Origin: Azolla caroliniana | Taxonomy: Eukaryota > Plantae > Polypodiophyta | NCBI GenBank assembly: GCA_043228905.1 | Contig: JBHGNT010000002.1 | Span: 12,152,001-12,216,000 of the forward strand | DNA length: 64,000 nucleotides | Direction of reading: 5' to 3' | In this document: positions 26,881-58,724 of the stretch, piece after piece | Position numbering within the stretch: the first letter of the stretch is position 1 | Layout of the letters: the number at the start of each line of letters is the position of its first letter | The notes under the pieces: generated by a model | What the model saw: only the letters and a program-made list of their open reading frames with translations | What the model was told of the DNA's origin: nothing | Database searches by the model: none | Made by a program: the position numbers and the translations under genes

Positions 26881-28741
26881 AACTTGGCCACCATCATCCA
26901 TCAAGACAAAGTGGCCAAAGTGTTCTTAGCACACAATTGAAAAATGAGGGATCTCAAGGTGCTTATATAGCTAGAGCCTTAAGTTTCCTATCTATGTGGG
27001 ATAAATCATAGTTCTATTTTCCCTATCTTCTCAAATATCCATCTTTCTATAACATGCCATTAAGCTAATATAAAGTACTTATTTTATTATTTATTTATTT
27101 ACATAGTGTGAGAAGATTCACACGACACTGGCCCAATCGGCATATGTAGATCCGATTAGCTTCTCAGTTATACCATGTCAGTATGACAGTCCCCGGTCCT
27201 TAGTGCTGCTAACATACCTCAATATTCAATGCACGCATTGAAAATGCTCCACAGTTGGCTTCTGCATGAATTGATTGATCATCCTGACCAGATAGTTGAT
27301 ATCGGGTTGGGTGATTGTTAAATATATAAGGCTTCAGACAATTTTTCGGAACCGTCTCTCATTGCAGGCCGGTCTAGGGGCAAAACGTAGCTTGAGGTTC
27401 TGGTCTAGAGGTGTCGAGATCGGTCGGCAATTCGTCATGCCCACTACTTAACTTGTACAACATATTCAACACATAATGTTGTTGAGATAACAATATGTTG
27501 TCGAAGGTATGGATCACTTCGATCTCGAGGAAGTAATGAAGGTCCCCCAAGTCCTTCATTTCGAAGGCATCCGACAGTTGGGACTTCACTTGGCTGATTT
27601 CAGCGAGTCCGGGTTCAATGATGACTAGATCATCCACATATAGCATGATACATATCGGACCATCCGAACGTTTCCGGATGAATAGTGAAGATTCCGACTT
27701 CGAGGCTACAAACCTCATTCTACGCAACTGGTGCGTGATCTTCGAATTCCAGGCACGGGGAGCTTGCTTAAGGACGTAAGAGACTTATTGAGTTAACACA
27801 CTGCCGAATTGTTCTTCAAGGTTGCCTTGAAGAAATGCATTCTTCACGTCCATTTGGTGAAGATGCCACCCCCTTTCTGCAACAACCGCCATCACCATTT
27901 GAAACGTCGTCGTCTTTGCTACCAGAGCAAAGGTCTCGTGGGTTTGTGCATATCCTTTGGCCACTAACTGGGCCTTGTACCGGTTGACCGAACCGTCAAC
28001 AATATACTTTACCTTGTACACCCACTTGCAACCGATCAGGTTTGCAATGTCGGGGAGGGTCAATCAGGTCCCATGTGTCGTTGGCATCGAGTGCCCACAT
28101 CTCTTCCTCCATAGATTATGCATCCTTTGCGGCTTCTGCGTAGCTCTCCGGTGTCGTGAAGAAAACCGGCCATAGGCGGAATCAGACGAAAAGGCGCATG
28201 AACCGGCTCTTACACGGATGGACACGTGAATTGATATTTTGATATTGATTCATAAATGGATCGGCTGATGTGAATACTAAGTAGTACACATTTATTAGGG
28301 AATTGTGCATATCTCTGTCAGGAGGGGATAGGGAATAAAGCAATTTGACTAGGGGAAAGGGGGCACCCCCTTTTGGGAACTATTTAAGGAGAGGTAAGAA
28401 GGAGAGGTGGGGGATCGCGCGTTAGGGAGGACGAAGTGCTGCGGCAGAACCGAGTGTCGAGCTCTCTCCTCCAACGGTCATTCTCTGTGGGTACTGGGAG
28501 TCCGACGCCTCTGCTTCGTGGGTAGCCCGTGCGTTTCCAGTAGAGGCTCCCCCCTCTATGTTTTTTGGGTTTAGTGTGTTCCGCCTGTGTGCGTGAGTAG
28601 GGTCCCCGTGTCGGGTCCATCGCCGCCTTGCCGGTTGTAACCTTCAGAGTTTACAATCTCTGAATATTGTAATCTACTGTTACTGTAATTAAGGGTGCCG
28701 TTTGTTTCCCTTTTCCCTCTTTCTGTTGCGCGTCTGCAAGA

Positions 28742-28778
<37 letters not shown>

Positions 28779-28850
28779 CTCGCTCCTCGGTTCAAGGCCC
28801 TTGTGGTCCCGCCTCTTTCTACACGCACGCGCATAACAATGCAACATATT

Positions 28851-28867
28851 TGGTGAACCCGACGTGA
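28851..28867 (+). promoter_or_regulatory. Primer-binding site complementary to the tRNA-Trp 3' end
   Basis: TGGTGAACCCGACGTGA is the reverse complement of TCACGTCGGGTTCACCA, the plant cytosolic tRNA-Trp end as I recall it. Confidence 0.8.
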
Positions 28868-28891
28868 ACATGGCGGCAAAGGAGTCGAAAG

Positions 28892-31030
28892 ATGAGGGGA
28901 TCAGAGCTAGCAGAGGCAATGGCGGTAGCCGTCGACCGGCTGGTAAGCGCTCGTGAGGGGACGAGTACCCTTGATAGGGCCATCGAATTGATCATCGGCA
29001 CTATAGGCCGGTTCGGAGGGAAAGACGCCACAAGTTATTTGGAGGCTTATCGGGCCGAAATGATCATGAGGGATATCCCGGTGGACAAGCGACTGTCTGG
29101 ATTCCCTCGGGTGGTGACGCCAAGCATCCACGCGGAGGTGCTCGAGGTGCTGGCCGGATGCCAGACTTGGGAGGAGTTCGAGCTGCGGCTCCTCGAGAAG
29201 TATGGGTTTGATGACTCGCTTCGGCTGTCAACGCGGGACTTCATGGCGTGGGTCGAAAGCCCCAGAAAAGGGAGGAACACGTCGGCGCTCCTCCAGGTGT
29301 TCAAAAAACAGTTCGCGCAGCTGTCGATGCTGGACCGGACCGTGCTCGAAACGAGTCGAGTACTACTGTTTGTTAAGTCGGTGGATGCGCTCGATAGGGA
29401 AAAGGTGGGTCCCCTATTGGAAACGGACGAAGGGCTCACGACAAACTGGGCCGTGGTAAAACGGGTCTGCAACCGTTTCGACAAACGGTGCGATTGGAGC
29501 GACGAAAGTTCGTCGGGGTCAGGACCGGTCCCGGGGAGGAGGCTTGAGGAGCCGGTATCGGTGCCGGCCAGTAGGAAGGAAGAAACCCGGATCTGGCCAG
29601 AGTCGGGGTTAGCATCGAAGGACGTGGTCAGAGGCCCATCCAGAGGAGCGGCTCTGGAGGAGCTGACACAGATGGTGCGCGACCTGCAGATCGCATAGGC
29701 CCGGAGAGATAGCGGCGAACAACCTCGCGACCGGAGGCCGCCGGCTGGGCAGCGGTGCATGTGGTGTGACACGATCGGTCACATTCGGAAGGATTGCGCG
29801 GATTTTGTTGACATGCTCAGGACCAACGTGGTGTACCTCTGGAACAGACGGGTGCACGCGAGTGAGACCCGGAGAGCCCTAGAACTAAATACGGGGCACG
29901 ATAGAATGAAGAGGTTGATGGAAGAGGCCGTGGCATGGCACGTTGAAGCCGTTAACTACTCTGTGTCGGCGGGAATTCGGGTCGGGGGTGATGCGACCCG
30001 GAAGGCGAAGGACTCCAGATTCTGGCCGCTAGTGCTAGAAGGCCTCTCCTGAGTTCGGCTGAAGAAGGAAGAGGTGGACCGCGTAGAACAACGGGTCCAG
30101 GAGGTCACCGGTTGGGACGATCCGGTCGAAGAGAAAACAGGCTTCGTAGAAGCCGCTTGTCAGAACTACGAGGTTCTGGTGGAAGACAAACGGGCAGGGA
30201 AGGCCGGAGGGGTCGGTCCCCCGCAGAGGTATGAGACCCGGTTCGGACCGAAACCGATCGGTGCCGACAACCCAAGCGCGTCGGACGGAAAGAAGCAGGC
30301 GGGGTTTTGGTTGAGCACCGAAATTGAAAGGACCACAAACCTGTGAAAGGTCCTGGAGGAACGTATCCTCGACAACAAAGTGGAGTTGTCGCTGAGGGAA
30401 GTGCTCGGGATCGCCAAGAAGGAGTTCCACGACTCCATCGTAGACTTGGTGAAGAGGAAAAGGCTGTCGACGGAGCCGGAAACGGAGAAGCCGGTGGAGG
30501 TGCGGACCACGCACTTGGAAGTCGTGGCCCTAGAAGACGAGTTGGCGGAAAGCCACTACACGAAGCCGCGTTGGGCCAGGGCAACTACAGAAACCCTTGT
30601 ACGGATCGGCAACGTTCTGGAACCGGTGGTGGCCTTGGTAGACCATGGATCCGAAATCAACCTGATGTCCATGGATTTCTACAAGAGTGGTAAATGGCCG
30701 ATCAACACCAAGCATGGCTGGAAAATACGGGCAACGACGCGCGCCACGGGAAGAACTACATGAAGCCTGTCTGAACGTATGGGTGAAAATCGGCAATGTC
30801 GAGATCGACCAACACTTCTTCGTGCAGGAGACGTCCTCGCATCCGGTTATACTAGGAGAGCCATACATCACGGCGGCATGGATGGAGACCAAGGTGCTGG
30901 ACAACGGTTCAGCCTATGCAAGAGTCAAGAGCCAGGACGAGCGTCACTCGGTCCAATTCTGGACGGTGCGACCAAACCATGAGCATAACCGCGAGGCCCT
31001 CGGCGGCTATCAAGGCGTGGGGATTTTTAG
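28892..31030 (+). pseudogene. Gag-zinc knuckle-protease ORF (interrupted)
   Basis: ORFs 28892, 29759, 30074, 30380 and 30687 are consecutive fragments; CMWCDTIGHIRKDC. Confidence 0.85.
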
Positions 31031-34000
31031 AGAGGGCTATCAAGGCGTGGGGCCACGATGGTCCGGACACCCGGGAAAAACCCCACAAATGTACAGTACG
31101 AAAGAAGACCTGTACCATAGGTAGAAAATTTTGGTTCTCCGACAACGAAGGTTGTACTATGGCCGGCGTCAACGGCCGGGAAAGGAAGCGAGCGGAGGAG
31201 CGGCTCAGGGGATGCAGAGTCCTCTTTCCTGACGAAGACATCAGCGGCACCGTGAAGGCGGTCTCTTTTGACAACACCTTGGGCGAGTTGCGAAAGGTGA
31301 TCGGTGAAGACCTTAGAGAAGACCGGACCGTTCCGGTAGGTTCGATGGGAATGTACGAAGTCATCGCGGACTTTGGGGAAAGGATCGGGTCGGATCGGAC
31401 GGCCCGTGTAGATACAAAGTACGAGACTGTGGACCGGAAGGTGAGGCCAGTCGCGGCACCCTTGCCGGAGGGCAGCGAGGAGCGGATAAAAGGGGTCACG
31501 TCGGACCCGAGTTTACGGAATCCGGCTGGCATAGGGCACCGGTTCACCGACATAACTGTACGGGAGCTCAAGGTTGGTGGGGGTGGCTTTCTACTGCCGG
31601 CGGAGGAGAACAGGTTTTGGAGAATGCTGGGAAGGTATGGGAAAGCCTTCGCGTTCTCGCCGGAGGAGATTGGGTGCGTGGACCCGACGATCGTTGAACC
31701 GATGGTGATCTTCATGGTACCGCATGTACCGTGGAATCTCAAACCGATTCCGGTGCCGAGAGCTCACATCTTGAAGTTGATGGGACTTCTGAAGCAAAAG
31801 GTGGAGATGGGCATCCTCGAACCGTCGAGTGCCCCGTATTCGAATCGGTGGTTTACGGTGCCGAAGAAGAACGGCACATTGCGCTTCATTCAGGACCTGC
31901 AACCGGTCAACAAAGTGACCATCCGTAACGCAGGAATCGGACCAACCATAGACGAGTTCACGGAGGCCCTCGCTGGACGGTCGATCTATTCGGTCGGCGA
32001 CTTATACTCGGGGTACGACTAGTTCCAGCTAGCCATGGAAAGCAGGGATATCATGACGATGCGAACTCCTCTCGGTCTGGTACGAATGTGTACCCTACCA
32101 CAAGGCCGGACAAATTCGGTGGCGCATATGGTGAACGCAATGAACAAGGTGCTAAGGGACTGCATCCCGGACATCACCCATGCCATTCTTGGATGACATC
32201 CCGATAAAGGGGTGTTCGGTGGATGACGCGGACGAGATCGTCGGGCCAGACGGATGCCGGAGGTTCGTCGTGAACCACATCAATGACTGCGAGAAGGTGC
32301 TGCAGAGGCTTGAAAACGCACGACTCACCTTCTTCGGAGAAAAATCGGCGTTCGGACAGTCGGAGATCTTGGTGGTCGGACACCTGTGCGGGCCCTATGG
32401 TAGGAAACCATCTCCGGCAAAGGTAGAGGCCATCTCCGCAATGAGGGACGATTGCGGGTCGGTCACGAAGGTCCACAGATTCTTGGGGGTATGCGCGTTC
32501 TACCACATCTGGATTCCGCACTACGCGCATGTTGCGGAGCCTCTCTATGGGATATTGAAGAAAGGGCGTGGGTTCGAGTGGAGGACGGAGCACACGGAGT
32601 TGGTCCGGAGACTAAAGGAGGCGCTTACGGTAGCGTGGGCCCTCCGTAAAGTGGTTTACGGCAAGGGTGTCCCCATTTGCGTGACGGTGGACACGAGCCC
32701 GACCGGGATCGGGTGGGTAATCAGTCAGGAGGACAAGGACGGCATACGATTCCCGATCCGGTTCGGGGCGAAGGTATTGAGCGAGCGGTAGCGAGGATAC
32801 GCCCAAGTTAAGCGTGAGCTTTGGGGTATCGTTTCGGTTGTCAAGGCCGACAAGGACTATCTGATCGGGACGGAGGTGATCATCGAGGCGGACTGCCTAC
32901 CGATACTCGGCATGGTTTCCGGATGCGCGACGCCGGACCTAGCAATGCTCCGGTGGATAGCGTACCTTAAGTCCCTGAACCCGGAGATACAGCACATCTC
33001 CGGAAAGGACAACGCCATGGCCGACATGCTTTCGAGAGCGAGGTTCAACGACGAAGACGACATGGTTTCGGATGACGAAGAAGTCGGCGAGGACTTCTTC
33101 GGGTCGGCTAACGTAATGACGAGGAAAAGGGACACTCCGGCACTCAACGAATTTGACGAAAGCAGGTACGATGGGGAGTGGCTCCAAATCGGGAGGTTCC
33201 TACGGACGATGACGACGGATGCAACATGGACGAGAGAAGAGGCGAGCCGGGTACCAAAAAAGGCGTATCGATTCTTCCTGCGGGACGAGCGCATATGGAG
33301 GCACCCAAAGAAGAGAAACGGCATCCCGCTCTGAGTAGTGGCAAAGAAAGAAGAACAGGAGGAACTACTAGCGGCATTTCACGAGAGTTCCTGGGCCGGG
33401 CACTTCGGAATGTGGGCCACGTTCGAGAAGCTGAAGGAGAAGTACTGGTGGCCGGGGCTGTACTAGGACATGCATCGGTTTGTAATGACTTGTGAAAGCT
33501 GTCAGATGCACTCCATAGTCTGACATCGGGACGAGCTACACCTGACTTACCTGCCTGCGGTCCATTTCAAGTGGATGGTGGACTTGGTGATGATGTCGAT
33601 GGGGGTAGGACAGATGCGATACCTGGTGCTTGCGCAGGAAGACTTAACGAACCAGGTGGAAGGCCGTGCACTACAGAACAAGACAACCGCGGCGGTACGC
33701 CGGTTCCTGATTGAAGAGGTAGTGTGTCGGTACGGGTGCGTCGGGAGGATTGTGGCGGACCGGGGAGAGCTGGATACGCGAGAAGCTGAGGAGCTGTTCG
33801 ACCGGCTGGGCGTCAAACTCTCTCTCACTACGGCATACAATCCGGAGGCGAACGGGAAGGTAGAATGTGGGCACAGGCCGATCGTAAAGGCGTTGGTGTG
33901 TGCATGCGGAGGGCAAGTCGGGAATTGGCCGCGACTCCTTCCTTACGCACTATGGGCAGACCGAACTACGCACAGTTCGGTGACAGGGTTTATGCCGGCA

Positions 34001-34560
34001 GAGCTGATGTACGGACAAAAGCTGATCATGCTGGTGGAACGGACGATTTCTTCATGGGCGGCGGTAGATTGGAAGGACGAGATGAGCCGGGAGGAGTTGC
34101 TGGTGGCGCGGATTCGGCAACTCGAGCAGAGGCCGGAAGACATAAAAAGGGCAAAGGAAAAGCTGCGGGCGACAAGGGAGCGGAAAAGGACCCGGTTCAA
34201 CCGGACACACTGGTTGCGACCGAAGAAGATCGAGGAAGGCGACTGGGTCTTGGTGTACGAAAACAGCCTCGACAATCAACACAAGGCGGTGCGAAAGTTT
34301 GCTAGGAGGTGGTTCAGGCCCTACTCGGTGACGAGTGCGAACGACAACGGCACGTACCACCTCGCGGAACTCGACGGGACACGGCTAGCAGTGCCGATTG
34401 CCGGGAAGTGGATCAAAGCGTTCAAGAAGCGGTTCGAAGACGAGCCAGAGCCTGCGAGCGAGAGCGACAACGAGTGGTTGGGCCCGGCAGAGAATCGGAG
34501 AGCGACGAATGAAGCCGGTTTTCTTCGGTATCTACCCGTCTCTGGCGCATGCCGGTGGAT
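31021..34560 (+). pseudogene. Pol (RT-RNaseH-integrase), interrupted, in the -1 frame
   Basis: ORFs 30916, 32180, 32876 and 33575. Confidence 0.88.
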
Positions 34561-35969
34561 GCGCGGTTTGGTGGGGGTGGATGTCGTGAAGAAAACCGGC
34601 CATAGGCGGAATCAGACGAAAAGGTGCTTGAATCGGCTCTTGCACGGATGGACGCGTGAATTGATATTTTGATATTGATTCATAAATGGATCAACTGATG
34701 TGAATACTAAGTAGTACACATTTATTAGGGGATTGTGCGTATCTCTGTTTGAAGGGGACAGGGAATAAAGTGATTTGACTAGGGGAAAGAGGGCACCCCC
34801 TTTTGGGAACTATTTAAGGAGAGGTAAGAAGGAGAGGTGGGGGATCGCGCGTTGGCGAGGACAAAGTGCTGCTGTAGAACTGAGTGCTGAGCTCTCTCCT
34901 CCGACGGTCATTCTCTGTGGGTGTTGGGAGTCTGACGCCTCTGCTTCGTGGGTAGCCCGTGCGTTGCGAGCAGAGGCTCCCCCCTCTATGTTTTCTGGGT
35001 CCAGTGTGTTCCGCCTGTGTGCGTGAGTAGGGTCCCCGTGTCAGGTCCATCGCCGCCTTGCCAGTTGTAACCTTCAGAGTTTGCAATCTCTGAATATTGT
35101 AATCTACCGTTACTGTAATTAAGTGTGCCGTTTGTTTCCCTTTTCCCTCTTTCTGTTGCGCGTCTGCAAGAATTCTCTCTCTCTCTCTCTCTCTCGCTCC
35201 TCGGTTCAAGGCCCCCGTGGTCCCGCCTCTTTCTACACGCATGCGCGTAACAACGCGACACCGGCTCATGCACTTCCGCCACTTTCATCATGTACACATA
35301 GTGGTGCGCCATGTACTCATTATACCCATACTGCTTTACGGGATTCTTCTAGCAGGTCGATCGACGTAACTTCTCATGAGCCAATTTCAAGGCCCTCTTG
35401 GCTGGCTCGAACTTCGTTCTCGAAGGTCTATCTTTGTTCTTTCCGAAGTCGGTCTTGCTCCGATCCGACTCTTCTCTATCGGTGTCATAGTCCAACATCT
35501 TCTTCTTGCCTTTGTCTTTGCCTGTGAACCGTCTCCTCGGTTCCTTACGCGGGGAGAGCACGACCGAGTCTTCGCTGCTCGCCGGTTCTTCATCTTGCTG
35601 GTCTTTCCGACTCAGCTCTTCATTTGGCCCACTCAGCTGAAATGAAATCAGACTCTCATTTGGAGTACCGAGTCCTTCTTCATGTTCTACCCCGATCGTT
35701 TCGGGCTCACTGGGCTCATCTTCCGAAATCGGGTCGGAGTCAGTAGAGAATACCAGTATGTCGACTCGTCAAATTCAACATCTTGGCTTACTCATACTTG
35801 CTTAGTTCAGGGGTTATAGCACTTGTACCCTTCTGGTCATGAGAGTACCCGACAAAAATGCACTTCTCTGACTTTGGGTCTAGCTTTCTCGCATCTCATC
35901 CGGTACATGCATATAGGCAATGTTACCGAATATCCTAAGGTGCCTTAGATTCGGCTTCCGTCCGAATCG

Positions 35970-38531: not shown

Positions 38532-39047
38532 AGGGTTTTTTTGTTTCGAGCAGTTGTTGGCAGTAGAGGTTCTCAACCCTCGCGCTTTGATACCATGAAA
38601 AGAGTAGCATGCAGAAGCTTATAGATGAAACTGGCTTTACCGGATAGTAACAAAGAGTAAGCATAGGCTCAATGGAAGCTTCGGAACAAAGAATACACAA
38701 GAGAGGGTTTTTTTGTTTCAAGCAGTTGTTGGCAGTAGAGGTTCTCAACCCTCGCGCTTTGATACCATGAAACGAGTAGCATGCAGAAGCTTATAGATGA
38801 AACTGGCTTTACCGGATAGTAACAAAGAGTAAGCACAGGCTCAATGGAAGCTTCAGAACAAAGAATACACAAGAGAGGGTTTTTTTGTTTCGAGCAGTTG
38901 TTGGCAGTTGAGGTTCTCAACCCTCGCGCTTTGATACCATGAAAAGAGTAGCATGCAGAAGCTTATAGATGAAACTGGCTTTACTGGATAGTAACAAAGA
39001 GTAAGCACAAGCTCAATGGAAGCTTCAGAACAAAGAATACACAAGAG
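38532..39047. repeat. 172-bp tandem triplication spanning U5-PBS-leader
   Basis: Units start at 38532, 38704 and 38876; each contains GCTTTGATACCA. Confidence 0.93.
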
Positions 39048-44540: not shown

Positions 44541-47500
44541 TTTGTATCTTGGGGGGTTGCCGGCATCTCCCGGTTTCAACTTGTACACCCACTTGTTTCG
44601 GAGTGCCCGCTTACCTTTCGGCAACTCCACCAATTCGTACGTATGGTTCTCATGCAGGGAATCCATCTCATCCTGCATGGCACTTAACCATTTGTGGCTA
44701 TGGGCGTCACTTTTAGCTTCCTTGAAGCTTTCTGGCTCGCCTCATCGGTTAGCAGCACATGCTCTGCATCTGGAAATCTCTGGGGGGGCCTTCTCTCTCT
44801 AAGAGGATATCTCCGTCTTTGTCTTTCGGAAATCGGCTCCTCTATTTGTTCTTCATCCGAATCCGATTCGGGGTCTTGGCCGGTTCAGGTTTCACCTATT
44901 CCTTCTTCTTCGGCCTGTCTTGTCTCCTTACCGTCACCGGGCGGTTCATCGAGTGCTAACCAGTCTCTTGCCGGTTGGGTTCACTCATCGTAGAATCGAT
45001 CCTTACCGGTCGACTCAGAGTTCATTATCTTCTTCTCTGACTCCCAGTCAGTGAGCATCTTGTCCTCCATGAAGATAATATCTCAACTCCGGAATACCTT
45101 CTTGTCGGCCAGGTCCCACACTCGGTAGCCGAACTCATCGTCGCCGTAACCGAGGAATATGTTGGCCGGGTCTTCGGATCTAATTTTCCTCTCTGTTCCT
45201 TAGCTACATGCACATACGCAAGACACCCGAATACCTTCAGATGCCAGTAGGACACTTCCTTACTGGTCCAGACTCTTTGTGGCGTGTCTCCGTCCAAGGG
45301 TACTGAGGGTGATCTGTTTATCACATATGTCGCCGTCGATAGTGCCTCAGCCCAAAACTTCTTGGGTAGTTTTGCATGCGCCAGCATACTCCGGACCCTC
45401 TCCATTATGGTCCGGTTCATCCTCTCTGCCAGCCCGTTTAGTTCCGGTGTCTTCGGTAGGGTAAATTCGAGCCGGATTCCCTTCGAGCGGCAGTACTCCT
45501 TGAACTGCCCCCGGTATTCTCCTCCGTTATCTGCTCGAACCGCCTTCAGCTTCCAGCCGGTTTCTCTTTCTACTCTCGCGTGGAGTTCTTTGAAGAAGAA
45601 TAGCACCTGATCCTTCGTCTTCAACGGTGTGGCCCACAGCTTCTGGTTGTGGTCATCTATGAACGTCACGAAGTACTGCAATCTAGCATGTGACTTCGTG
45701 TCCACTTGACACACATCAGTATGCACCAACTCTAGTGGTGCATTACGTCTCATCGGTGGCCTTGGTCGGAAGGAGGTCCGGTTTTGCTTACCGGCCAAAC
45801 AATCAATGCACTTCTCCAAGTGCACGTTCTTCACTGGAATGAGGTTATTGTCTGCAAGCCTCTTCATTCCCTTCTCACTCATGTGACATAGCCTCTTGTG
45901 CCACAGCTCACCGGCAGTGTCGGAAGCCATGTTCACTTCTTTCGGGCATAACCGGGCATTCATCAAGTACAACGTGTTGACCTTCCGAGCTCGAGCCACT
46001 ATCAGGCTCCCTTTGTTGAATTTCATGACTCCATTCCGGATGCTACCCGTGTAGCCTTCATCATCTAGCCGATCGGCTGATATCAGGTTCAGTAGAACCT
46101 CCAGAACGTGTCGGACATCCTTCAGCAACAACTTGCATCTGGTTGGTGTTGTCAACCACACGTCTCCTATGCCGACAATTCGGCATGTACCTTCATTCCC
46201 CATCCGGACACAACCATGATCACTAGCTGTGTAGGATGAGAAGTATTTACGGTCCGGGGTAAGGTGGAACGACGCTCCGGAATCAACAACCCACGTGATC
46301 TTGTCGCCGGCAAGGTTCAAGTCACTCTCCTCAGTGATGAGCATCAACTCTTCTTCACTTGCCGTGATTGCCGTCGTTCCCTTCCGGTCTGTTCCCCTGC
46401 GGTCTTTACCGTTCCGGTCCGGTGTCCGCTTCGAATCGGTACCGTCAGTTTCCTTGTCTTTTCAGAAGTGCCGACAGTTCTTCTGGAAGTGTCCCGGCTT
46501 GCTGCAATAGAAGCAGGTAGGCCTCCGCCTTGACTTTGACCGTGTCCCCGACTTTTCCCGGTTTTGGGGACTACGGTTCCTTTGTCTTCCACGTTCCGAT
46601 TCAGTAAGGAGCGCTTTGGAGTTAGAGCTCGTATCCTTATCTTTCCGACGCGCCTCCTCATCTAGCAAGCTCGACTTCACTCTTGCTAGGGATAACCGTT
46701 TCCCTTCCGGCCCTGTGTTGCCCAAAGTGACAACCAACGTCTCCCAGCTATCCGGGAGGGAACCGAGTAGGAGTAGTGCTAGTACCTCATCGGCGAGAGG
46801 TACTTCTAATGATGTTGCCTGGTGTATCAGCCCTTGGAAGGCATTCATGTGCTCCGTCATGCTGGAGCCATCTTGGTACCTGAGTCTTACTAGCTTCCGA
46901 AATACCGAAACCTGATTAACAACATTTTTGTTCTGAAACATAATGCCGATCTTCTCCCAGAGCTCATGAGTCTTGCTCTCTTCATTGAAGTTGTTGTATA
47001 GACTCATGTCAATGAAGCACCGTATGTACGCCGTTGTCTTCATGTGCATCACCTCCCATATCGTGGCATCGATTTTGTCCGGTCTCTTGTCCCCGAACTG
47101 AACCGGTAACCAAAGATCTTTAACCACAAGCATGTCCCTCATCTTCGACTTCCACACTGAGTAGTTCGAGCCGGTGAGCTTGGACATGCCTCCCAACGAA
47201 TCATCCATTTTTCTGTGTCGTTTCGCTCTGATACCAGTTTGACACGAAATATGCGGATTAATCTCCGGCCACAACCGAAGCGTAGATCACTTGATGACAA
47301 TCATAAACAGACGAAGTGGGAATGGAAGTAAGTAGACAAAACAGAAAGAGAATACACAAGATATTAACGTGGAAAACCCTGAGAGGGAAAAACCACAGGA
47401 GCCCTCCGACTGCAAAATATCACTATATCAAGATTACAACAATGGGGCATAGAGGCAATGACCACTTGCTCCCTCTCTTCACCACCAAGCAGTTACAACA

Positions 47501-47929
47501 GAGGCAACAACCTCTTCCTCTCTCTCTCTCTCTCTTTCTATCTCACTCTGTACACGGTTGCGCTCTGAATTATCGCCACAACGATAATAATACAACCAAC
47601 TCTACATCATGCTTCTTAAGTTTGCCCTAGGTCATATTTATACTGATATGACTTTCAGGCTATTTACAAATATAGCCCCAATGGGCTCTCTGGAACATAT
47701 TTACATATGTCCCTTCCATCCGATGAAAGGTTCTCACCGGGCCTGCAACATCTGGTTCTCACCGGAGTCTTCCTTGCTGGGTACTCGTCATCTGGTTCTC
47801 ACCGGGTCTTTCGTTGCCGGGTACTCCACATCCGGTTCTCACCGGGTCTTTCATTGCTGGGTACTCCACATCCAGTTCTCACCGGGTCTTCCATTGCCGG
47901 GTACTCGACACTTCTCATCCAGAGGGAGC
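44535..47929 (-). mobile_element. Ty1/copia 5' half: LTR 47240 to about 47929, PBS 47225-47236, gag, PR, integrase, start of RT
   Basis: Perfect GCTCTGATACCA; ORFs 46462-47274 and 45025-46347 (WVVDSGAS, ADNGGEY); RT start WLSAMQDEM...RYKAR. Confidence 0.92.
47749..47910. repeat. About 40-bp tandem repeat x4 in LTR U3
   Basis: CATCCGGTTCTCACCGGGTCTT...GGGTACTC units. Confidence 0.85.
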
Positions 47930-50900
47930 TGTGATGGGTTGATGCGATGAATGAGGAAATGGAAGCATTATGCCAAAACGAGACATGGGATGTCGTCCCT
48001 CACACGTCGCACAAGAAAGCGATTGGCTGTTGATGGATTTACAAAGTGAAACACAATGCCGACGGCTCCATAAATCTCTTTAAAGCACAACTCGTTGAGA
48101 AAGGATACACGCAAACGCCGAGATTAACAAAGTCAAATCACTTCTCTCCGACAGATTTGAAATGAAAGACCTGCACGATCTCCATTACTTCCTAGGCATC
48201 GAAGTAATTCGAACACTAGTCAGAATAATGATCTCTCAATGGCACTACGTTCTCAACTTGCTCTCCAAGTTCAGAATGACCAAATGCAAACCTATGTCCA
48301 CCCCTCTCGATTGTAATTTCAAGATGGATGTCGATTCTGGCACAGCTATGTGCGAGTCAACTTAATATCATCAAATGATTGGCAACTTAATCTATCTCAC
48401 CATTACGCGACCCGATCTCAGTTATTCGGTCGGCCTACTTAGCCAATTCATGCAGAATCTGCGAAACCTTCATCTCAATTGCGCTAAGAGGATACTCTGG
48501 TATGTCAGTATTATGATGGATTACGGCGTTATGTACAAGTCAAATACGACCATTTGACTCGAAGGTTACACAGATGTGGACTAGGCAGGATACAAAGAGG
48601 ATAGACGATCCACATCCGGATTCGTCTTCTCCCTTGGCAGCGGAGTGATCTCCCAAGGCAGTAAGAAGCAGCCGACAGTCGCATTGTTGAGCACGGAAGC
48701 CGAATACAGGGGCGCAATAGTCGCCGCATGCGAATCCGTTGTTGTGTTACTACGCTTTTGCGGGTGAAATGAGATGGGACCAAGGAGCGTGAGAGAGGAG
48801 AGAGAGAGTGTTTTGCTAAACACAGTGAAAGAGAGAGAGAGAAAATAGAACAATTCGATTATAACACCAATAACGATTACAACCGGCACATCAGCAACAG
48901 ACCCAACACGGGAGTCCACCCACACACACTCAACCATCACACGCCAAGCACTGAAACGCGAAGGGAGAGCCTCTGATGGAAGCGCATGGGCTGTCCACGA
49001 AGAAGAGGCGACGATCTCCAAAACCCGCAAAGAATGAAAACCGAAGGAGGAGAGAGAGAGCTCGGTACACGGTTTGGCAACACTTCGTCCTTGCTAACGC
49101 ATGGTGGTTCTGTTCTTCCGTATATAGGTCATTAGGGGGAGTCCGTTCTCCTTCACTCACAGTCACATTACTTTATTCTCTGTCCCTTCGGACAGAGATA
49201 CACATTGATTTCCTAATAAATGTGTCGCACCTAGTATATTTACATCAGCCGCCCTACACATAATTACGTACAAGTTATCAATTCACACGCCCACACATGG
49301 AAGGGCCGGATCGTGTAAGATTTCTTTCGTTTCCTCCTAGGGACGGTTTTCTCCACGACATCCACCCCTACCAAACCGCGCGTCCACCGGTACGCGCCAG
49401 ATACAACACTTGCCGGAGAAAACCAGCCCGCTATCACCCGTCACTGCCCAATTCATCATTCATTTCGAGCCAGTCGTCGTCGTCAGTTGCGCATTCGGGG
49501 TCTAGCTCTTCCTCTTGCCGCTTCTTGAATACCTTGACCCTTTTTCCTACTACCGGCACCGCCATCCGTGTCCCGTCGAGCTCCGCAAGATGGTACGTGC
49601 CATTGTCATTCGCACTCGTTACCGCATAGGGCCTAAACCACCTCCTCGCAAACTTACCCACCGCCTTGTGCTGATTGTTGAGGCTGCTTTCGTACACCAG
49701 CACCCACACACCTTCCTCAATCTTCCTCGGCCTCAGTCGGTGAGTACGGTCGAACCGACCTTTGTTCTTTTTTCGTGCTGTACGCAGCCTTTCCTTCGCC
49801 CGCTCCACATCTTCCGGTCTTCGCTCGAGTTGCCGGATCCTTGCTGCCAACAACTCTTCCCGGCTCATCTCGTCCTTCCAGTCCATCGCGGCCCACGAAG
49901 TGATCGTTTTCTCCGCCAGCATGATTGGCTTTTGCCCGTGCATCAGCTCCGCTGGCATGAACCCCGTCACCGAACTATGCGTAGTTCGATCCACCCATAG
50001 TGCGTAAGGAAGGAGCCCCGGCCAATTCCCGACCTGTCCTTCGCATGCACGTACTAACACCTTCACAATGGGCCCATGACCACGCTCTACCTTCCTGTTG
50101 GCCTCCGGATTGTACGCCGTAGTGAGGGAGAGTTTGAACCCCAGTCGGTCAAACAACTCTTCAGCCTCTTGCGCGTCTAGTTCTCCGCGGTCGGCAACGA
50201 TCTTTCCTACGCACCCGTACCGACACACCACTTCTTCGATTAGAAATCGGCAGATGGCCGCGGTCGTTTTGTTCTACAACGCTCGGCCTTCCTCCTGGTT
50301 CATCAGGTCCTACTGAGCCAGCACCAGATATCGCATCTGTCCTACCCCCATCGGCATAGTCACTAAATTCACCATCCATTTGAAGTGGACGGTCGGTGGG
50401 TAGGTTGGATGAAGCTCGTCTCGATGCCGGACTGTAGAGTGCATCTGGCAATTCTTACAGGTTGTTACAAAAGGATGCACATCCCGGTACAGCCCCGACC
50501 ACCAATACTTACCCTTGAGCTTCTCGAATGTGGCCCACGTCTTGCGGTGTCCGGCCTAAGGACTCTCTTGATATGCCATAAGCAACGCTTTCTGCTCTGC
50601 TCGTCTTCCCTCGCCACTACGCGGAGTGGGGTGCCGCTACGCTTCTTCGAATGCCTCCATATGCGTCCTCCTCGTAGGAAGAATCGGTACGCCTTCTTCC
50701 GCACCCGATTGGCCTCTTCTCTAGTCCACGCCGTGTTCGGCGTCATCGTCCACAGGAACCTTCCTATTTGGACCCACTCCCCGTCGTATTCGCTCTCGTC
50801 GAACTTGTTAACCGCCAGAGTGCTCCCCGTCCCAGTTGCCACCTTAGCTGACCCGAAGAAGTCCTTGCCGACTTCTTCGTTATCCCAAACCATGCTGTCC

Positions 50901-51920
50901 TCGTTGCTGAACCGCGCCCTTGAAAGCATATCGGCCATGGCATTATCCTTTCCGGAGATGTGTCGTATCTCCGGGTTCAGGGACTTGATGTACGCGATCC
51001 ACCTGAGCATCGCCAGGTCCGGAGTTGCGCATCCGGAAACCATACCAAGAATTAGTAGGCAGTCTATCTCGATGATCACTTCCATCCCGATCAGATAGTC
51101 CTTGTCGGCCTTGATTGCCGAAACGATACCCCATAGCTCGCGCTTAATTTGGGCGTATCCTCGCTGCCGCTCGCTCAATACCTTTGCCCCGAACCAGATC
51201 GGGAATCGTACGCCGTCCTCGTCTTTCTAATTGATCACCCACCTGATCCCGGTCGGGCTCGTATCCACCGTCACGTAAATGGGGACTTCCTTGCCGTAAA
51301 CCACTTTCTGGAAAGCCGGTGCCGCGGCGAGGGCCTCCTTTAGTCTCCGGACCGACTCTGTGTGCTCCGTCCTCCGTTTGAACCAGCACCCTTTCTTTAA
51401 TAACCCGTAAAGTGGTTTCGCGACATGCACGTAGTGCGGAATCTAGATGTGATAGAACGCACATGCCCATAGGATCCTTCGGACCTCCGTCACCGACCCG
51501 CATTCATCCTTCATCGTGAGATGGCTTCTATCTTCGCCGGGGACGGCTTCCGGCCGTAAGGCCCGCACAGGTGTCCGACTACTACGATCTTCGGCTGTCC
51601 GAAGGCTGATTTTTCTCCAGAGAAGGTGAGTTGCGCGCTCTCGAGTCTTTGTAGCACCTTCTCGTAGTTGCGGATGTGATCCGTCATGAACCTCCGGCAA
51701 CTGTCGGGCCCGACCGACTCATCCTTGTCCTCCACCGGACATCCTTTGATCTGGATGTTGTCCAGAAACGACATGGTGATGTCCGAGATGCAGTCCCTCA
51801 ACACCTTGTTCATCGCATTCACCATGTGCGCCTCCGAGTTCGTTCTCCCTTGCGGTCGGGTACACATCTGAACTAGGCCGAGAGGAGTCCGCATCGTCGT
51901 GACATCCTTGCTCTCTACGG

Positions 51921-53039
51921 TGTCGTGAAGATTTTCGGCAATGGTGTGAAAATCACATAAAATGTACAAAATCGAGTATGAATCACATAAAACAATAATA
52001 GCGAAGATAACATTTTAAATAACTTTAATATCTAAGTACAAAATGATGGAGGTCTTCAAGAACTTTCGACTGCACTTTATTACACGAGAAACAGATAACT
52101 AGATGTCAAGATATGAGGGTATAAAATTTGTGAAAGGAAAAGAGAAAATTGTGAGATATCCCACATAGGCACGACAAATACGACTCTCATCATATATAAG
52201 GTAGAGCAAAAGTTATTATCTTTGTGTTTATGTGTGGAGCATAGAGAGTTCAAGGTAACTTGAACTAAGAGTGGAGGTGGCCTAGCTACTTGTAAAGGTT
52301 TTGGCCAACCAAAACCGGACCGGTGATGGAGCCGGTGATCCGGCGGTAGCCGGCAAAGCGACGATGGCACACCGGCAATCGGTGATCCGGCGAGGCGACG
52401 ATATCCACCGGTAACCGACGGCATTCGGCGAACTGACATCCGACGACTAGATAAATAAATATATAAATATATATATATACAAGTACGGTAAGTAAGGATT
52501 CGAACCTTGCACCTCCAAGTTAGGAGTCAATTGACTTACCACTAAGCCAAGATATTTAGTTGAAATTATATTTCTATCATTGTACTTTTATATTAAAATT
52601 ATCATACATGAGAGCTAAAATGAGTGACATGGTTATCATGCACCACATGTAATACATGAGCGCCAAATGGCAAACATGCATTTTATGCATGTCTTGAACC
52701 CTCAAATGCATGAGGGCATCTATAAAAGAGGGAATGAAAAAGATCAAAGGGGGATTTTTCTGGCAAAAAAAAGAAAGCTTTGTACTTTAAATCAAAATTA
52801 ATATTAAGAAGAAAATTCGTTATCCTTTTGAGGAATACCTTGTTCTTTAAATCTAAAGTCAAGAGTTCTCAATCTCTCTCTCAATCTAAAATCAGGCGTT
52901 CTATCTTATCTCAATCTCTCTCTTTCAATCTATCTTAATTCCTTTCCCGCTAAAGCTTGGTGCGAACTTTGATACTTCCGGTCCAGAACCCCGGCGGTTC
53001 CGCCTTGTGATCCGCGCCTAGTGACGGATCTTCACGACA
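51921..53039 (+). mobile_element. Solo LTR with 12-bp terminal inverted repeat and 4-bp TSD ACGG
   Basis: ACGG|TGTCGTGAAGAT...ATCTTCACGACA|ACGG; interrupts RT. Confidence 0.9.
52496..52549 (-). other. tRNA-derived A/B-box unit inside the solo LTR
   Basis: TGGCTTAGTGG...GGTTCGAATCC, both consensus boxes. Confidence 0.7.
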
Positions 53040-55120
53040 ACGGTTAGTTGGAACTGATCGTACCCTGAGTACAGATCCCCGACCGAGCAGATCGACCTCC
53101 CTACGAAGGCCTCCGCGAACTCATCAATGGTTTGTCCGATACCGGCGTTTCGAATGGTCACCTTGTTGACCGGCTGCAGGTCCTGTATCAAGCGCAGTGT
53201 GCCGTTCTTCTTTGGCACAGTAAACCACTGATTCGAATGTGGGGCACTCGACGGTTCGAGGATGCCCATCTCCACCTTTTGTTTCAACAACTCCATCAGC
53301 TCCGGAATGTGAGCTCTAGGCACCGGAATCGGTTTGAGATTCCACGGTACGTGCGGTACCGTGAAGATCACCATCGGTTCTACGATCGTCGGGTCTACGC
53401 ACCCGATCTCCTCCGGTGAGAATGCGAAGGCTTTCCCGTGCCTTCCGAGCATTCTCCGAAACTGGTCCTCCTCCGCAGGTAGTAGAAACCCACCCCCACC
53501 AACCTTGAGCTCCCGTAGCGTTATGTCAGTGAACCGGTGTCCTATGCCGGCCGGATTCTGTAGACTTGGGTCTGACACGACCCCCCTTATACGCTTCTTG
53601 TTGCCCTCTGGCAAGGGTGTCGTGACGGGCCTCATCTTCTAGTCCACAGTCTTGTACTTCGCCCTTATGCAGGCCGTCCGATCCGACCTGATCCCTTCCC
53701 CAAAGTCTGCGATGACTTCGTACATTTCCACTGAGCTGACCGGAATCATCCGGTCTCCGCTAAGGCCCTCATCGACTACACCGCATAGCTCTCCCAAGGT
53801 GTCATCAAACGAGACTGCCTCCACGGCGCTGCTAATTTCTTCATCGGGGTGGAGATCCCGGCATGACCTGAGCCGCTCCTCCACCTTCTTCTTCTCCCTA
53901 CTACTGATGCCCGTTAATGTACAACCTCCGTTGTCGGAGAGCCAAAATTTCCTACCTATGGTACAGGTGTGGGGTTCCTCCGACGCGTTCGGACTATTGT
54001 GGCCCCACGCCTTGATAGCCCTCTTTAAAAATCCCCTCGGCTGTCGCCGCCGAGAGTCTCATGGTTACGCTCATGATTTGGTCTCACGGTTAGAAATTGG
54101 ATGGAGTGTCGTTCGTCTTGACTCTTCACGCGCGCGTATGCCGAGCAGTTGTCGAGCACCTATGTTTCTTAGTGCCACTACTGGCTCTTGCACATCTCCG
54201 ACCCGGATAGGGGTCTCGATAGTGGCTCTGGCCCAATGTAATTTAGAATAATGGCTTTCCGCCAACTCGTCCTTTAAGGCCGCATCCTCTAAGTGCGTAG
54301 TCCGCACCTCTACGGGCTTCTCCGGTTCCGGTTCCGCGGAGAGCCTTTTGCGCTTCACCAAGTTCACAATGGATTCGTGGAACTCCTTCTTGGCGATTCC
54401 AAGCACCTCCCTCAGTGACAACTCCACCTTGCTGTCGAGGATCCGCTCTCAGAGGACCTTCCGCAGGTCTGTCGTTCTTTCTATCTCGTTGCTCAATCGG
54501 TACCTAGCAGGCTTGGCCTTGTCCGGTATCCCGGAATGTCGACCCGGTGACTTCTCGGATCCGTTGCTCCGCGCGGTTCGCTTCTTCCTTCTTCAACCGG
54601 ACTCCGGAGAGGCCTTCCAGCACTAGTGGCCAGAACCCGGAGTAGCTTGCCTTCTCTCGTTCATTGTCCCCGACCCGGATTCCTACCGATGCCGCATAAT
54701 TCACGGCCTTACTGTGTCGCGTGGCAGCCTCTTCCATAAGAATCTTCATTCCACCACGCCCGATATTCACTTCTAGGGCTCTTCGAGTCTCGCTGGAGTG
54801 CACCCGACCACCCCAGAGGTACACCATGTTAGTTCTAAGCGCATTTGCGAAATCCGCGCAGTCTCTTCGGGCATGGACGAATGCGTCGCACCATATGCAT
54901 CGCTGCCTTGCCGGTGGCCTTCGGTCGCAAGATTGGTCGCTGGTGTCCCGTCGTGTCTGCACGATCTGGAGGTCGCGCACCATTTGTGTCAATTCTTCTA
55001 GTGTCGCCCCTCCGGAGGGACCTTTGACCACGCCGCTTGACGCCGACCCCGTCTCAAGCGAGTTTCAGGTTTCTTCTTTTCGTGTCGGCGAAGGCTCCTC
55101 GAACTGCCTTGACGGGACGA

Positions 55121-56686
55121 TGTCGTATGTGGCGTGCCGAGAGTGGGAAAAACCAGCGAAAGGGGGGTGTCAAAAATGTGCATGTGCAATGTGTGTTCAC
55201 ACAAAAGCGATTAATTGTGCATATGCAAAATAAAAAAAGAAAAGAAAGGGTGAAAAGGAGGTATAGAAGCTCGTGCAAAAAGTAAGAGAGAGGAGAGATA
55301 AAAGGTAGAGGGGAGACATGCTATGAATTTATAGAGATAGAATTATATAAGAGAGAGTTTGTGGGCTAGTGGATGGTCACATTGACTACTAGCTAGAGGT
55401 GCATGGTTCGAATTTGGACTTACAATGCAACGTGATTTAAGGAATTTTATTCCTTTTTCATTGAAGACAAATTTGGCGACCCCCCCTTCTTTTTTTCCTA
55501 TAAAAGGAGGTTGAGGGGGGTTCATTCGGGAGGGTTTTGGGAGGAGGAGACTATTGCCAATTTTCCTTCGAAGCTCTTCATCTCCTTATTCACCACTTCT
55601 CTTCATCTCATACCCCTTCATCCCCCCATCGCCACGTGCTCGTCTTCTTTGCGTCGGTACTCGAAGTGCTCATGAGCCCAAGCTTCGTTGGTTCGACGTT
55701 GCTCCGCCCCGTTTGTCGTTGTGAGCCCGTGTGCTCGTCGTTCGGGTGTTCGTGGTTTGTTGGGATTGGCATTTTGGTTGTGCTCATGTGTTCATCTTCA
55801 CCGTTTTTGGATTTGCTTTTGTCTCTAAGGGCATTTAATATTTATGTTTTGATTGAGCTTGTGGTTAACTATAATTTGCCATTGTAAACAAAACCCTATT
55901 TTATAAAGGGTCCTCTTGCGTTGGAATCGAACACGTATTTATCTCTTTGGTCGATATCATTCATGTTTCTTTCTCTCCTTCTTTCTTTATTCGTGTCTTC
56001 CTTGTACGTTCGGCCGTCTTGTGACGAGGGGACCGTTTGGGCTTGCCCATGCACCTCTCCTCCTCATAAAGGTGTACGAGCATTTTGTGCGTGTGTTTGT
56101 GTCTTTCTTGTACGTTCGCCCATCTTGTGACGAGGGGACCATTTGGGCTTGCCCATGCACCTCTCCTCCTCATAAAGGCATACAAGCATTTGTGTGTGTG
56201 CTTGTGTCTTCTTTGTACGTTCGGCCATCTTGTGACAAGGGGACCGTTTGGGCTTGCCCATGCACCTCCCCTCCTCATAAAGGTGTACGAGCATTTGTGT
56301 GTGTGTTTGTGTCTTCCTTGTATGTTCGGTCGTCCTGTGACGAGGGAGCGTTTCGGGCGTGCCCATGCACCTCTCCTCCTCATAAAGACCTATGGACATT
56401 CGTGTTTGTGTTATCGTCCCCTTGTGCGTTCATGTTGTGTGCTCATCTTGCTTGTACCCATTTGGTCACTTGGCTCTTGCGGTGATCTCGGAAGGTCGAC
56501 GAGTCGTGATCAATGAGAGCCACGGGCCTCACAAAATAAAGGGCAATGAGACCTTGCTCGGGAAGGGGTCGAGAAGTAGTATTGTCGTAAAGAAAACCTC
56601 GAGTCTTCTCTATCCCTTGAGTACTCCCTAGTCCAAGACCCCCGTGGTCCCGCCCAAGTAACACACGTGTGCGAAACTTCGCGACA
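55121..56686 (+). mobile_element. Solo LTR, 4-bp TSD ACGA/ACGG
   Basis: TGTCG...CGACA; U5 motif CCCCGTGGTCCCGCC shared with 35210-35230; interrupts gag. Confidence 0.85.
55994..56400. repeat. About 105-bp tandem repeat x4
   Basis: TGTGACGAGGGGACCGTTTGGGCTTGCCCATGCACCTCTCCTCCTCATAAAG units. Confidence 0.92.
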
Positions 56687-58724
56687 ACGGGCCTTGCTGT
56701 CAATGACCCTTCATCACTCCATTCCTTCCGTTTGTCGAAACGGCTACAGACTCCTTTAACCACGGCCTAGTAAGTTGTGAGCCCTTCATCGGTCTCCAAC
56801 AAGAGACCTACCTTCTCTCTGTCCAATGCGTCAACCGCTTTGACGAACAGTAGTACCCGGCTCGTATCGAGCACGACTGGTCTAACACTGACAACCGCGC
56901 GAACCGCGTTTCGAATTCCCAGAGGAGCACCAATGTGCTCCTCCCCTTCCCAAGGCTTTTGACACATGCCATGAAGTCCCGCTTCGACAGTTGAAGCAAG
57001 TCATCGAACCCATACTTTTCGAAGAGCGGCTCCCCGAAAACCTCCCACATCTGGCATCCAGCTAGCACCTCGAGCAGCTCTGCATGGATGCTCGGCGTCA
57101 CCACTCGAGGGAATCCGGATAGCCGCCTGTCTTCAGGGATGTCTCTCATGATCATCTCGGCCCGATAGGACTCCAAATAGCTCATGGCGTTCTTACCAGC
57201 AAATCGGCCTATGGTGCCGACGATCGATTCTATGGCTTTGTCGAGGGTACCTGTTCCCTCACGAGCGCTCACTAGCCGGTCAACGGTTACTACCATAGCT
57301 TCAGCAAGCTCAGTTCCCCTCATCTTCAACTCCTTTTCCGCCTCCTTCATGTCGGGTTCAACAAATATGTCGTGTTACTACACTTTCACGGGTGAAATGA
57401 GACGGGACCGCGGGGGCCCTGAACCAAGGAGCGTGAGAGAGGAGAGAGAGAGCATTTTGCTGAACACAATGAAAGAGAGAGAGAGAAAACAGAACAATTC
57501 GATTATAACACCAATAACGATTACAACTGGCACACCGGCAACAGACCCAACACGGGAGTCCACCCACAGAAACGCGAAGGGAGAGCCTCTGATGGAAGCG
57601 CACGGGCTGTCCACGAAGCAGAGTCGACGATCTCCAAAGAGAATGACAACCGAAGGAGGAGAGAGAGAGCTCGGTACACGGTCCGACAACACTTCGTCCT
57701 TGCTAACACACGATGGTTCTGTTCTTCCTTCTGTTCTTCCTTATATAGGTCGTTGGGGGGAGTCCGTTCTCCTTCAATCACAGTCACATTACTTTATTCT
57801 CTGTCCCTTCGAACAGAGATACGCATTGATTTCCTAATAAATGTGTCGCACCTAGTATATTTACATCAGCTGCCCTACACATAATTACGTACAAGTTATC
57901 AATTCACACGCCCACACATGGAAGGGTCGGTTCGTGCATGGTTTCTTTCGTTTCCCCCTAGGGACGGTTTTCTCCACGACACCATATGGCTCAAGCGCAT
58001 ATTGAAGGATCTGGGCGTTCCCATTACGAATCCAATTCGCCTCTTCTGTGACAACATGAGCAGCATATGCCTCGCTCGAAACCCCGTCTTCCACGTACGG
58101 ACTAAACAAATCGAAGTGCACTACCACTTCATCCACGAGCGCATACAGGCTGAAGATATCGATCTACAACATATTAGTACGCATCTCCAAATTGCTGATA
58201 TTTTTACGAAGGCCTTAGGAGTCGACAAGCTCGGACGATTCGCATCAGACCTTGGTCTCACGACATCCACATTGCCGAGTTTGAGGGGGAGTATTACAGG
58301 CGACATGGACTTAACACAGAATGATACGCCACATGCAATGATACGTGAGTACGCAACACATAGTTAATCGAATCGAGCATGAAGCCGAAAAGCCGAACAA
58401 TCTAGTTCGAGGATTACGAATGCTAGAAGCCGGATTCTGAAGAGTGAACTGAAACAACTTTTCAACAGATGGATGTTGTGTTCGAAGGGGCGTGTTGAGA
58501 GTCGAACTCAACTTCCCATAGAGATAGGTTTCACACTAGCTCATGGACAACCCAGGCTAGTCTTGTAAATAGTAGAAAGGGCCCTTGCCCTAGTTTAGTT
58601 GGTATTTAACTCGACCCCTTGTAACTTAGTTACTGTTGGAAGTATTTTGGTTAATGTAACATACAATCTTTTATCTCTATCTTAAGCCCTCTCTCTCTCT
58701 CTCTCTCTCTGTTTTGGCTTATGT

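What the first reader, a model, noticed from the sequence alone, without database searches (positions are those of the whole stretch)
28148..57985. Gypsy superfamily inserting site-specifically into CpG-centred tetramers with 4-bp TSDs
Seen: the TSD pairs are CCGG/CCGG (28148, 35261), CCGT/CCAT (48736, 57982), ACGG/ACGG (51917, 53040) and ACGA/ACGG (55117, 56687). Single surviving junctions are CTGG (23767), CTGG (27128) and CCAG (17150). All seven fit a palindromic (A/C)CG(G/T) target, and every deviation is a C>T or G>A change in a CG/CHG context, as expected from methyl-C decay. Known: plant LTR elements normally make 5-bp TSDs with weak sequence preference, whereas 4-bp specific targets are typical of insect errantiviruses. 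Inference: this integrase, which has no chromodomain, reads a CpG (possibly methylated) site, which would steer it into other GC-rich TEs, where most copies here lie.
Basis: partly seen in the sequence, partly recalled or inferred. Interest (0 to 1): 0.85.

Follow-up and report, generated by a model that had tools for sequence, protein, structure and literature searches.

The report
CG-targeting Gypsy elements, likely Phygy lineage
These plant jumping genes insert almost only into four-base sites centred on the letters CG, a real habit already reported for the moss "Phygy" group to which they likely belong, and whether they sense DNA methylation is untested.

Summary
There are six insertion sites, not seven: 17150 and 23767 are the two ends of one element. 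All 4 pairs with an empty-site reference overlap it by exactly 4 bp. In related metagenome contigs, 69 of 76 unique 5' junctions and 20 of 21 3' junctions have CG at the centre of the tetramer; background is 3.4%. It is not new for plants. Neumann et al. 2019 report 4-bp NCGN duplications, mostly tRNA-Trp priming and no extra domain for 186 Phygy elements of Physcomitrella. These elements match on TSD, motif and domain layout and are somewhat shorter. No labelled Phygy sequence was available, so membership was not tested on a tree. The likely mechanism is an ordinary 4-bp-stagger intasome that kinks and reads the central CG. Methyl-CpG reading and active steering into GC-rich TEs are not shown.

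The parts
28152..35260 (+). Element A: full-length, decayed Ty3/gypsy element (7109 bp) inserted in a minus-strand Copia
   Evidence: LTRs 28152-28846 and 34582-35260, 93.1% identical, 38 transitions and 9 transversions
28148..28151 (.). TSD of A, left copy CCGG (right copy CCGG at 35261-35264)
28851..28867 (+). Primer-binding site of A; tRNA-Trp isotype assigned from recall, not from a call
   Evidence: the same PBS follows the LTR in 6 loci (a seventh is cut off)
28976..34465 (+). gag-PR-RT-RH-IN coding region of A, broken by stops and frameshifts; ends after the GPY/F motif with a short acidic tail; no chromodomain, archaeal RNase H or env
   Evidence: tblastn with P0024 and P0001; Pfam; profile against Ty3
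34561..34581 (+). Polypurine tract region before A's 3' LTR
   Evidence: the same tract precedes 37 of 116 family LTR starts in outside loci
48740..57981 (-). Element B: sister of A (70-80% DNA identity over the internal region; 6549 bp without its two nested inserts), inserted in a Copia RNase H; TSD CCGT 48736-48739 / CCAT 57982-57985
   Evidence: (LTRs 93.7%)
51921..53039 (+). Solo LTR (1119 bp) of a related high-copy family, nested in B's RT; TSD ACGG 51917-51920 / ACGG 53040-53043
   Evidence: PPT-like loose ends before its start and a 1123-bp empty-site joint in 4 of 4 runs; overlap 4
55121..56686 (+). Probable solo LTR (1566 bp) of another related family, nested in B's gag; TSD ACGA 55117-55120 / ACGG 56687-56690
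17154..23766 (-). Element C: older, rearranged member (internal inversion, nested inserts, truncated 3' LTR); TSD CCAG 17150-17153 / CTGG 23767-23770, inferred original CCGG
   Evidence: LTR overlap 80.1%; PBS; flanks contiguous in L043 with overlap 4
26033..27127 (.). Element D: truncated LTR-like piece ending CACGACA; single junction CTGG at 27128-27131; left boundary approximate
   Evidence: the Copia paralogue reads CCAG at the same place; family link is weak

Best explanation
These are non-chromovirus Ty3/gypsy retrotransposons, likely of the Phygy lineage, that insert with a 4-bp duplication centred on a CG dinucleotide (VCGB, mostly ACGT), and their integrase likely picks this site by kinking the DNA at the central step and reading its bases directly, probably without needing methylation. 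Shown: LTR/PBS/PPT anatomy, 4-bp TSD, CG centring, avoidance of T at position 1 and A at position 4, no chromodomain. Inferred from known 4-bp intasomes: two active sites join the LTR ends 4 bp apart across a sharply bent central pyrimidine-purine step. Inferred here: bending alone is not enough, because TA is never used, so base-specific contacts probably add the CG requirement. Because CpG is about five times denser in the TE block than in the host gene, insertions would fall into TEs passively. After insertion the TSD CpGs likely decay by methyl-C deamination.
For: Junction census: 69 of 76 unique 5' flanks end NCGN against 3.4% background (binomial p about 2e-92), 5 are NTGN/NCAN and 2 other; position 1 is A48 C17 G10 T1 and position 4 is A4 C9 G18 T45. 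At 3' ends CG lies at +2,+3 in 20 of 21 and at +3,+4 in 0 of 21, which fixes a 4-bp geometry. Central TA: 0 observed against 4.5 expected. No strong CG signal at other upstream positions to -40. In public runs, the majority letters of loose ends before A's LTR end in ACGT in 3 of 4 runs; the fourth gives the PPT. In two runs, 69 and 68 contigs follow the solo LTR's own four flanking bases and then share nothing, agreement 0.34-0.35. Phygy per Neumann 2019: 186 elements, 4 bp (100%), NCGN, tRNA-Trp 81%, no extra domain or extra ORF. Relatives: Riccia (liverwort) 41-71% and unnamed contigs up to 77% over the integrase query, Adiantum (fern) 68% over RT-RH. No chromodomain or separate archaeal-RH family at E<0.1 in 8 relatives and 2 window frames. 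Serrao 2015 (PMC4422553, passages): 4-bp retroviruses favour a central YR step and disfavour T at 0 and A at +3, the same signature in weaker form. Drosophila ZAM-subgroup elements target CGCG (PMC5408687, passage) in a host with little CpG methylation (recalled).
Against: No labelled Phygy sequence could be put in a tree: the REXdb FASTA and element table are too large to read, and no Physcomitrium record was among the listed hits. A (7109 bp) and B (6549 bp) fall below Phygy's 7656-9968 bp. The tRNA-Trp isotype is recalled. The 76 junctions come from one series of assemblies whose LTRs are only about 69-79% like A's, so they sample related families, perhaps in another species, and old fixed copies rather than new insertions. 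Only 3 of 12 contigs holding both ends have matching tetramers, which suggests assemblies chimeric across collapsed LTRs; they were not used as TSD pairs. Nothing here measures methylation at the time of insertion.
Confidence: 0.6

Rival explanations
1. The integrase prefers or needs methylated CpG, so it reads the host's silencing mark on the DNA itself and replaces the chromodomain as a heterochromatin guide.
For: The target is exactly the symmetric CpG step and there is no chromodomain. At least 37 of 76 flanks are TE-like or repeated. Phygy LTR domains are reported enriched at centromeres of the liverwort Apopellia (PMC12885004, passage). An effect of CpG methylation on retroviral integration in vitro is in print (Kitamura 1992; seen only as a reference title).
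Against: There are no methylation data. Flank CpG o/e is 0.74, between the host gene region (0.32) and TEs (0.89-1.07), which does not point to long-methylated DNA. The C>T/G>A decay in TSDs post-dates insertion and says nothing about the target's state. CG-containing targets occur in Drosophila elements.
Confidence: 0.15
2. The elements form a sister lineage to Phygy in seed-free plants (perhaps allied to fungal Ylt1-like gypsy elements) that shares the NCGN target by descent or convergence.
For: They are shorter than Phygy. DUF4100 occurs in 3 of 8 relatives, one above the curated cut-off in two of them. The gag look-alikes include clusters whose commonest taxon is Basidiomycota (a lead only).
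Against: TSD length, motif, domain layout and host group all match the Phygy description. Phygy was defined from a single species, so its size range is probably too narrow, and it is since reported from a liverwort.
Confidence: 0.17
3. Site choice is only DNA bendability or a host tethering factor bound at CG sites, with no base reading by the integrase.
For: A central YR preference is general for 4-bp intasomes. ACGT is also the core of common plant transcription-factor sites (recalled).
Against: Other YR steps are unused or rare: TA 0 against 4.5 expected, CA 2 and TG 3 against 5.5 each, and those five are explicable as decay. The signal is confined to the 4 duplicated bases, which a tether would not usually give.
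Confidence: 0.06
4. The pattern is an artefact of boundary choice, assembly or post-insertion selection.
For: The window sample is small, and metagenome assemblies collapse LTRs (3 of 12 two-ended contigs match).
Against: Internal junctions show the PPT or PBS, not NCGN, at the same boundaries. Empty sites give exactly 4 bp. 5' and 3' junctions agree independently, and methylation decay would remove CG rather than create it.
Confidence: 0.02

Closest known systems
Phygy clade, non-chromovirus Ty3/gypsy (Neumann et al. 2019, PMC6317226; REXdb)
   Same: 4-bp TSD with NCGN preference; PBS (tRNA-Trp by recall); no chromodomain, archaeal RH or extra ORF; coding region fills the interior; seed-free plant relatives; frequent nesting in other elements (PMC6911290, passages).
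   Different: Shorter (6.5-7.1 kb against 7.7-10 kb). The host is unidentified, with no close named match for its gene. The outer bases are resolved here as VCGB with ACGT dominant, where the paper text gives only NCGN. The tree was not tested.
TatI (lycophyte) and Selgy (Selaginella) clades, same paper
   Same: 4-bp TSDs; TatI also uses tRNA-Trp (75% of 4 elements).
   Different: TatI always carries archaeal RNase H, not found here. Selgy uses tRNA-Ala and averages 5 kb. No sequence preference is reported for either.
Drosophila errantiviruses (gypsy, ZAM, Idefix subgroups; PMC5408687, PMC3276498)
   Same: 4-bp TSD with a palindromic target motif (TATA, CGCG, ATAT).
   Different: No env and no room for one (about 100 bp from integrase end to PPT); the central step is CG, whereas CGCG has a central GC. 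A functional analogy, not membership.
Prototype foamy virus and other 4-bp retroviral intasomes (PMC4422553)
   Same: 4-bp stagger, central YR, T disfavoured at position 0 and A at +3; PFV integrase is the best solved match of the integrase core (E 3.6e-6).
   Different: Their preference is weak (YR about 63% above random); here it is near-absolute and CG-specific.

Membership tests
Phygy | Clusters with P. patens Phygy in RT-RH-INT phylogeny | not testable with these tools
   Reference FASTA too large to read. The integrase tree of 110 sequences nests A and B among unnamed and Riccia proteins but has no labelled clade references and no outgroup.
Phygy | 4-bp TSD | tested here: met
   4 of 4 empty-site overlaps; 1123-bp joint; CG at -3,-2 and +2,+3
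Phygy | NCGN target preference | tested here: met
   69 of 76 5' and 20 of 21 3' junctions
Phygy | PBS complementary to tRNA-Trp | tested here: inconclusive
   A conserved PBS is present in A, B (2 changes), C (3-nt insert) and 6 loci. The isotype is from recall; the window holds no tRNA gene.
Phygy | No chromodomain, no archaeal RNase H, no extra ORF; polyprotein spans the interior | tested here: met
   Pfam; median tail after the integrase end motif about 34 aa in 103 relatives, 6 longer than 60 aa and not examined; coding 28976-34465 within interior 28847-34581
Phygy | Size 7656-9968 bp (descriptive, from one species; not a classification criterion per the paper) | tested here: not met
   A 7109 bp, B 6549 bp
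TatI | Archaeal RNase H domain | tested here: not met
   No RVT_3 hit apart from E 0.047 over the ordinary RNase H in 1 of 8 relatives; RH-to-IN span colinear with Ty3
Selgy | tRNA-Ala PBS and about 5 kb size | tested here: not met
   Size 6.5-7.1 kb; PBS read as Trp by recall
Chromoviruses (Tcn1, Galadriel and others) | C-terminal chromodomain | tested here: not met
Errantivirus | env ORF after pol | tested here: not met
   Integrase ends near 34465 and the LTR starts at 34582
Ginger/GingerRoot DNA transposon (for 51921-53039, which has 12-bp terminal inverted repeats) | TIR element without LTR context; GingerRoot has a 6-bp TSD and TA...TA ends | tested here: not met
   PPT-like sequence precedes its start in 44 and 57 loose-ended contigs of two runs; TSD 4 bp; PMC6839031 passages

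The most novel reading that the evidence does not exclude
A chromodomain-less retrotransposon lineage of seed-free plants whose integrase senses 5-methyl-CpG in the duplicated tetramer itself, so that it uses the host's own silencing mark as a landing signal for heterochromatin.
Probability: 0.13. Interest if true: 0.78.

Novelty: new member of a known kind. Interest (0 to 1): 0.27.

Why it matters
As it stands, this extends a one-sentence published observation (NCGN targeting by Phygy) to several high-copy families in another seed-free plant and sharpens the motif to VCGB/ACGT. It is a near-strict sequence-specific plant LTR integrase whose basis appears unstudied: of the 10 searches, the one for NCGN returned only the 2019 paper and one unrelated paper by its listing, and no passage read tested methylation. 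Intact natural pol relatives exist (for example P0001), so the methylation question can be tested directly. If the integrase read 5mCpG, it would be a new route to heterochromatin targeting.

Tried and rejected
No genome is held for the window, so the genome-wide census could not be run. Viral contigs held no relative (3 pattern matches, 0 confirmed). No RNA holder was listed, which is no evidence on expression. The single-sequence fold of A's integrase was unusable (pLDDT 36.9). The alignment-based fold had not finished, so no fold search was run and the PFV Arg329-equivalent was not mapped. In-window controls from other LTR families gave no clean two-sided TSD. Two-ended metagenome contigs were rejected as TSD pairs (3 of 12 match). 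Six pattern matches on contigs of other origin with little LTR similarity were dropped; 2 of 6 were NCGN, so including them gives 71 of 82. Also dropped: 37 PPT junctions and 3 duplicate flanks at 5' ends, and 7 PBS junctions and 2 unreadable rows at 3' ends. The host taxon was not resolved: the host gene's named hits are Adiantum at 41-44% over under a fifth of the query. The ESM Atlas integrase search gave only generic gypsy integrases. Rejected readings: a DNA transposon for 51921-53039; TatI; Selgy; errantivirus; 5-bp TSD.
Full report
Observation. The window is a plant-type nest of LTR retrotransposons from about 17 to 64 kb, beside a spliced SF1/KHDC4-BBP-like host gene at 7.5-14.5 kb. 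There are therefore six sites, five of them two-sided.

TSD length. Each flank aligned separately to a paralogous empty site overlaps it by exactly 4 bases in 4 of 4 cases: B, C and both nested inserts (an earlier scoring test also favoured 4 over 3, 5 or 6 in 2 of 2, narrowly for the second). A had no reference. Contigs from 4 of 4 public runs (3 samples) skip 1123 bp at the first insert, its 1119 bp plus 4. The same call shows PPT-like sequence before this insert's start in other copies, so it is a solo LTR and not a TIR element.

Larger sample. No genome was held. A 20-letter LTR-start pattern gave 120 loci with 122 matches from 31 of 64 parts of the metagenome collection. I set aside 6 matches on contigs of other origin, 37 internal PPT junctions and 3 duplicate flanks. 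Of the 76 left, 69 end in NCGN, 5 in NTGN/NCAN and 2 otherwise, against 3.4% NCGN in the same flanks (p about 2e-92). With the six dropped matches it is 71 of 82. ACGT makes up 28 of the 69; 48 of 76 fit (A/C)CG(G/T); T at position 1 occurs once and A at position 4 four times. At 3' ends, 20 of 21 genomic junctions have CG at +2,+3 and none at +3,+4, which again fixes a 4-bp geometry (7 PBS junctions and 2 unreadable rows set aside). Limits: these contigs are one assembly series, their LTRs are about 69-79% like A's, and only 3 of 12 two-ended contigs match, so they were used as single junctions only. In runs that hold A's own family, majority letters of loose ends before the LTR end in ACGT in 3 of 4 runs (29, 39 and 20 contigs; the fourth, 12 contigs, gives the PPT).

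Anatomy and relatives. A has a PBS and PPT and a decayed gag-PR-RT-RH-IN region filling the interior. The integrase ends after the GPY/F motif; the profile aligns with Ty3 from RT to that point. No chromodomain or separate archaeal RNase H was found in 8 relatives or 2 window frames, and the median tail in 103 relatives is about 34 residues. Named relatives are from the liverwort Riccia and the fern Adiantum; the cluster members read gave no organism names. The host was not identified.

What is known. Neumann et al. [quoted passage not shown] They list Phygy as 186 elements, 4 bp (100%), tRNA-Trp 81%, 7656-9968 bp, no extra domains. Selgy and TatI also make 4-bp TSDs. Jedlicka 2019 (PMC6911290; passages and a supplement search) finds GC-rich centres in 4-bp TSDs and frequent Phygy nesting in Tcn1. 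Phygy is also reported in the liverwort Apopellia (PMC12885004, passages). The elements here match on TSD, motif and domain layout, match on PBS by recall of the tRNA, and are shorter (7109 and 6549 bp). The defining tree test could not be run; my integrase tree has no labelled references. Passages of PMC7466625, PMC12477314, PMC7910972, PMC2864245, PMC6839031, PMC3276498 and bioRxiv 10.64898/2026.09.17.752431 were read and added no test of this motif.

Mechanism. Shown: a 4-bp stagger centred on CG with symmetric outer-base bias. From the literature: retroviral intasomes with 4-bp duplications kink the target at a central YR step and disfavour T at 0 and A at +3 (PMC4422553, passages), the same signature in weaker form. 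Inferred: bending alone cannot explain the data, since TA is used 0 times against 4.5 expected, so base contacts probably add CG specificity. A lead: the residue aligned to PFV Ala188, a target-base contact, is Glu in 31 of 32 relatives, and the CTD loop before GPY has an invariant Lys and two Arg/Lys positions; no usable model was obtained. Methylation is not addressed by any data here. TSD decay happens after insertion; flank CpG o/e (0.74) is uninformative; Drosophila ZAM-subgroup elements use CGCG (PMC5408687, passage) in a host with little CpG methylation (recalled). Steering: 90% of the window's CpGs lie in the TE block, a count that includes the elements themselves, and at least 37 of 76 outside flanks are TE-like or repeated, yet the flanks average 43% GC with 26 of 75 under 40%. 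Passive bias is enough to explain the nesting; active targeting is not shown.

Verdict. A real and strong feature, essentially already described for Phygy. These are most likely new Phygy-type families. What this adds is the VCGB/ACGT refinement and a testable methylation question. Interest 0.27.

Noticed in passing
window 33524-34510 and relatives (P0001 residue 901; 1076-1081): The position aligned to the PFV target-contact residue Ala188 is Glu in 31 of 32 relatives (motif DRGEL), and the second Asp and the Glu of the DDE triad lie 35 residues apart, one fewer than in PFV; the CTD loop before GPY has conserved basic residues. Candidate CG readers.
   Followed up: partly
window 7499-14474 (-): Spliced SF1/KHDC4-BBP-like host gene; its region has CpG o/e 0.32 against about 0.9-1.1 in the TEs, which hints at long-term gene-body methylation in this host.
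   Followed up: partly
window 21546-22407: [quoted passage not shown]
   Followed up: no
window 51921-53039: This solo LTR has perfect 12-bp terminal inverted repeats and belongs to a very high-copy family (thousands of contigs per run) that shares A's PPT but little LTR sequence.
   Followed up: partly
window 26044-26298, 26573-26898, 38532-39049, 47737-47936, 55978-56423: Tandem arrays with units of 80, 23, 172, 40 and about 105 bp inside LTRs or near element ends.
   Followed up: no
P0022, P0024, P0222: Relatives carry DUF4100 in the gag region, and gag look-alikes include basidiomycete clusters; a possible link to fungal Ylt1-like gypsy elements.
   Followed up: partly
window about 41820-44600: Another gypsy-type element (gag with zinc knuckle, different PBS) interrupted by a Copia; not of the CG-targeting family, and its TSD was not resolved.
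   Followed up: no
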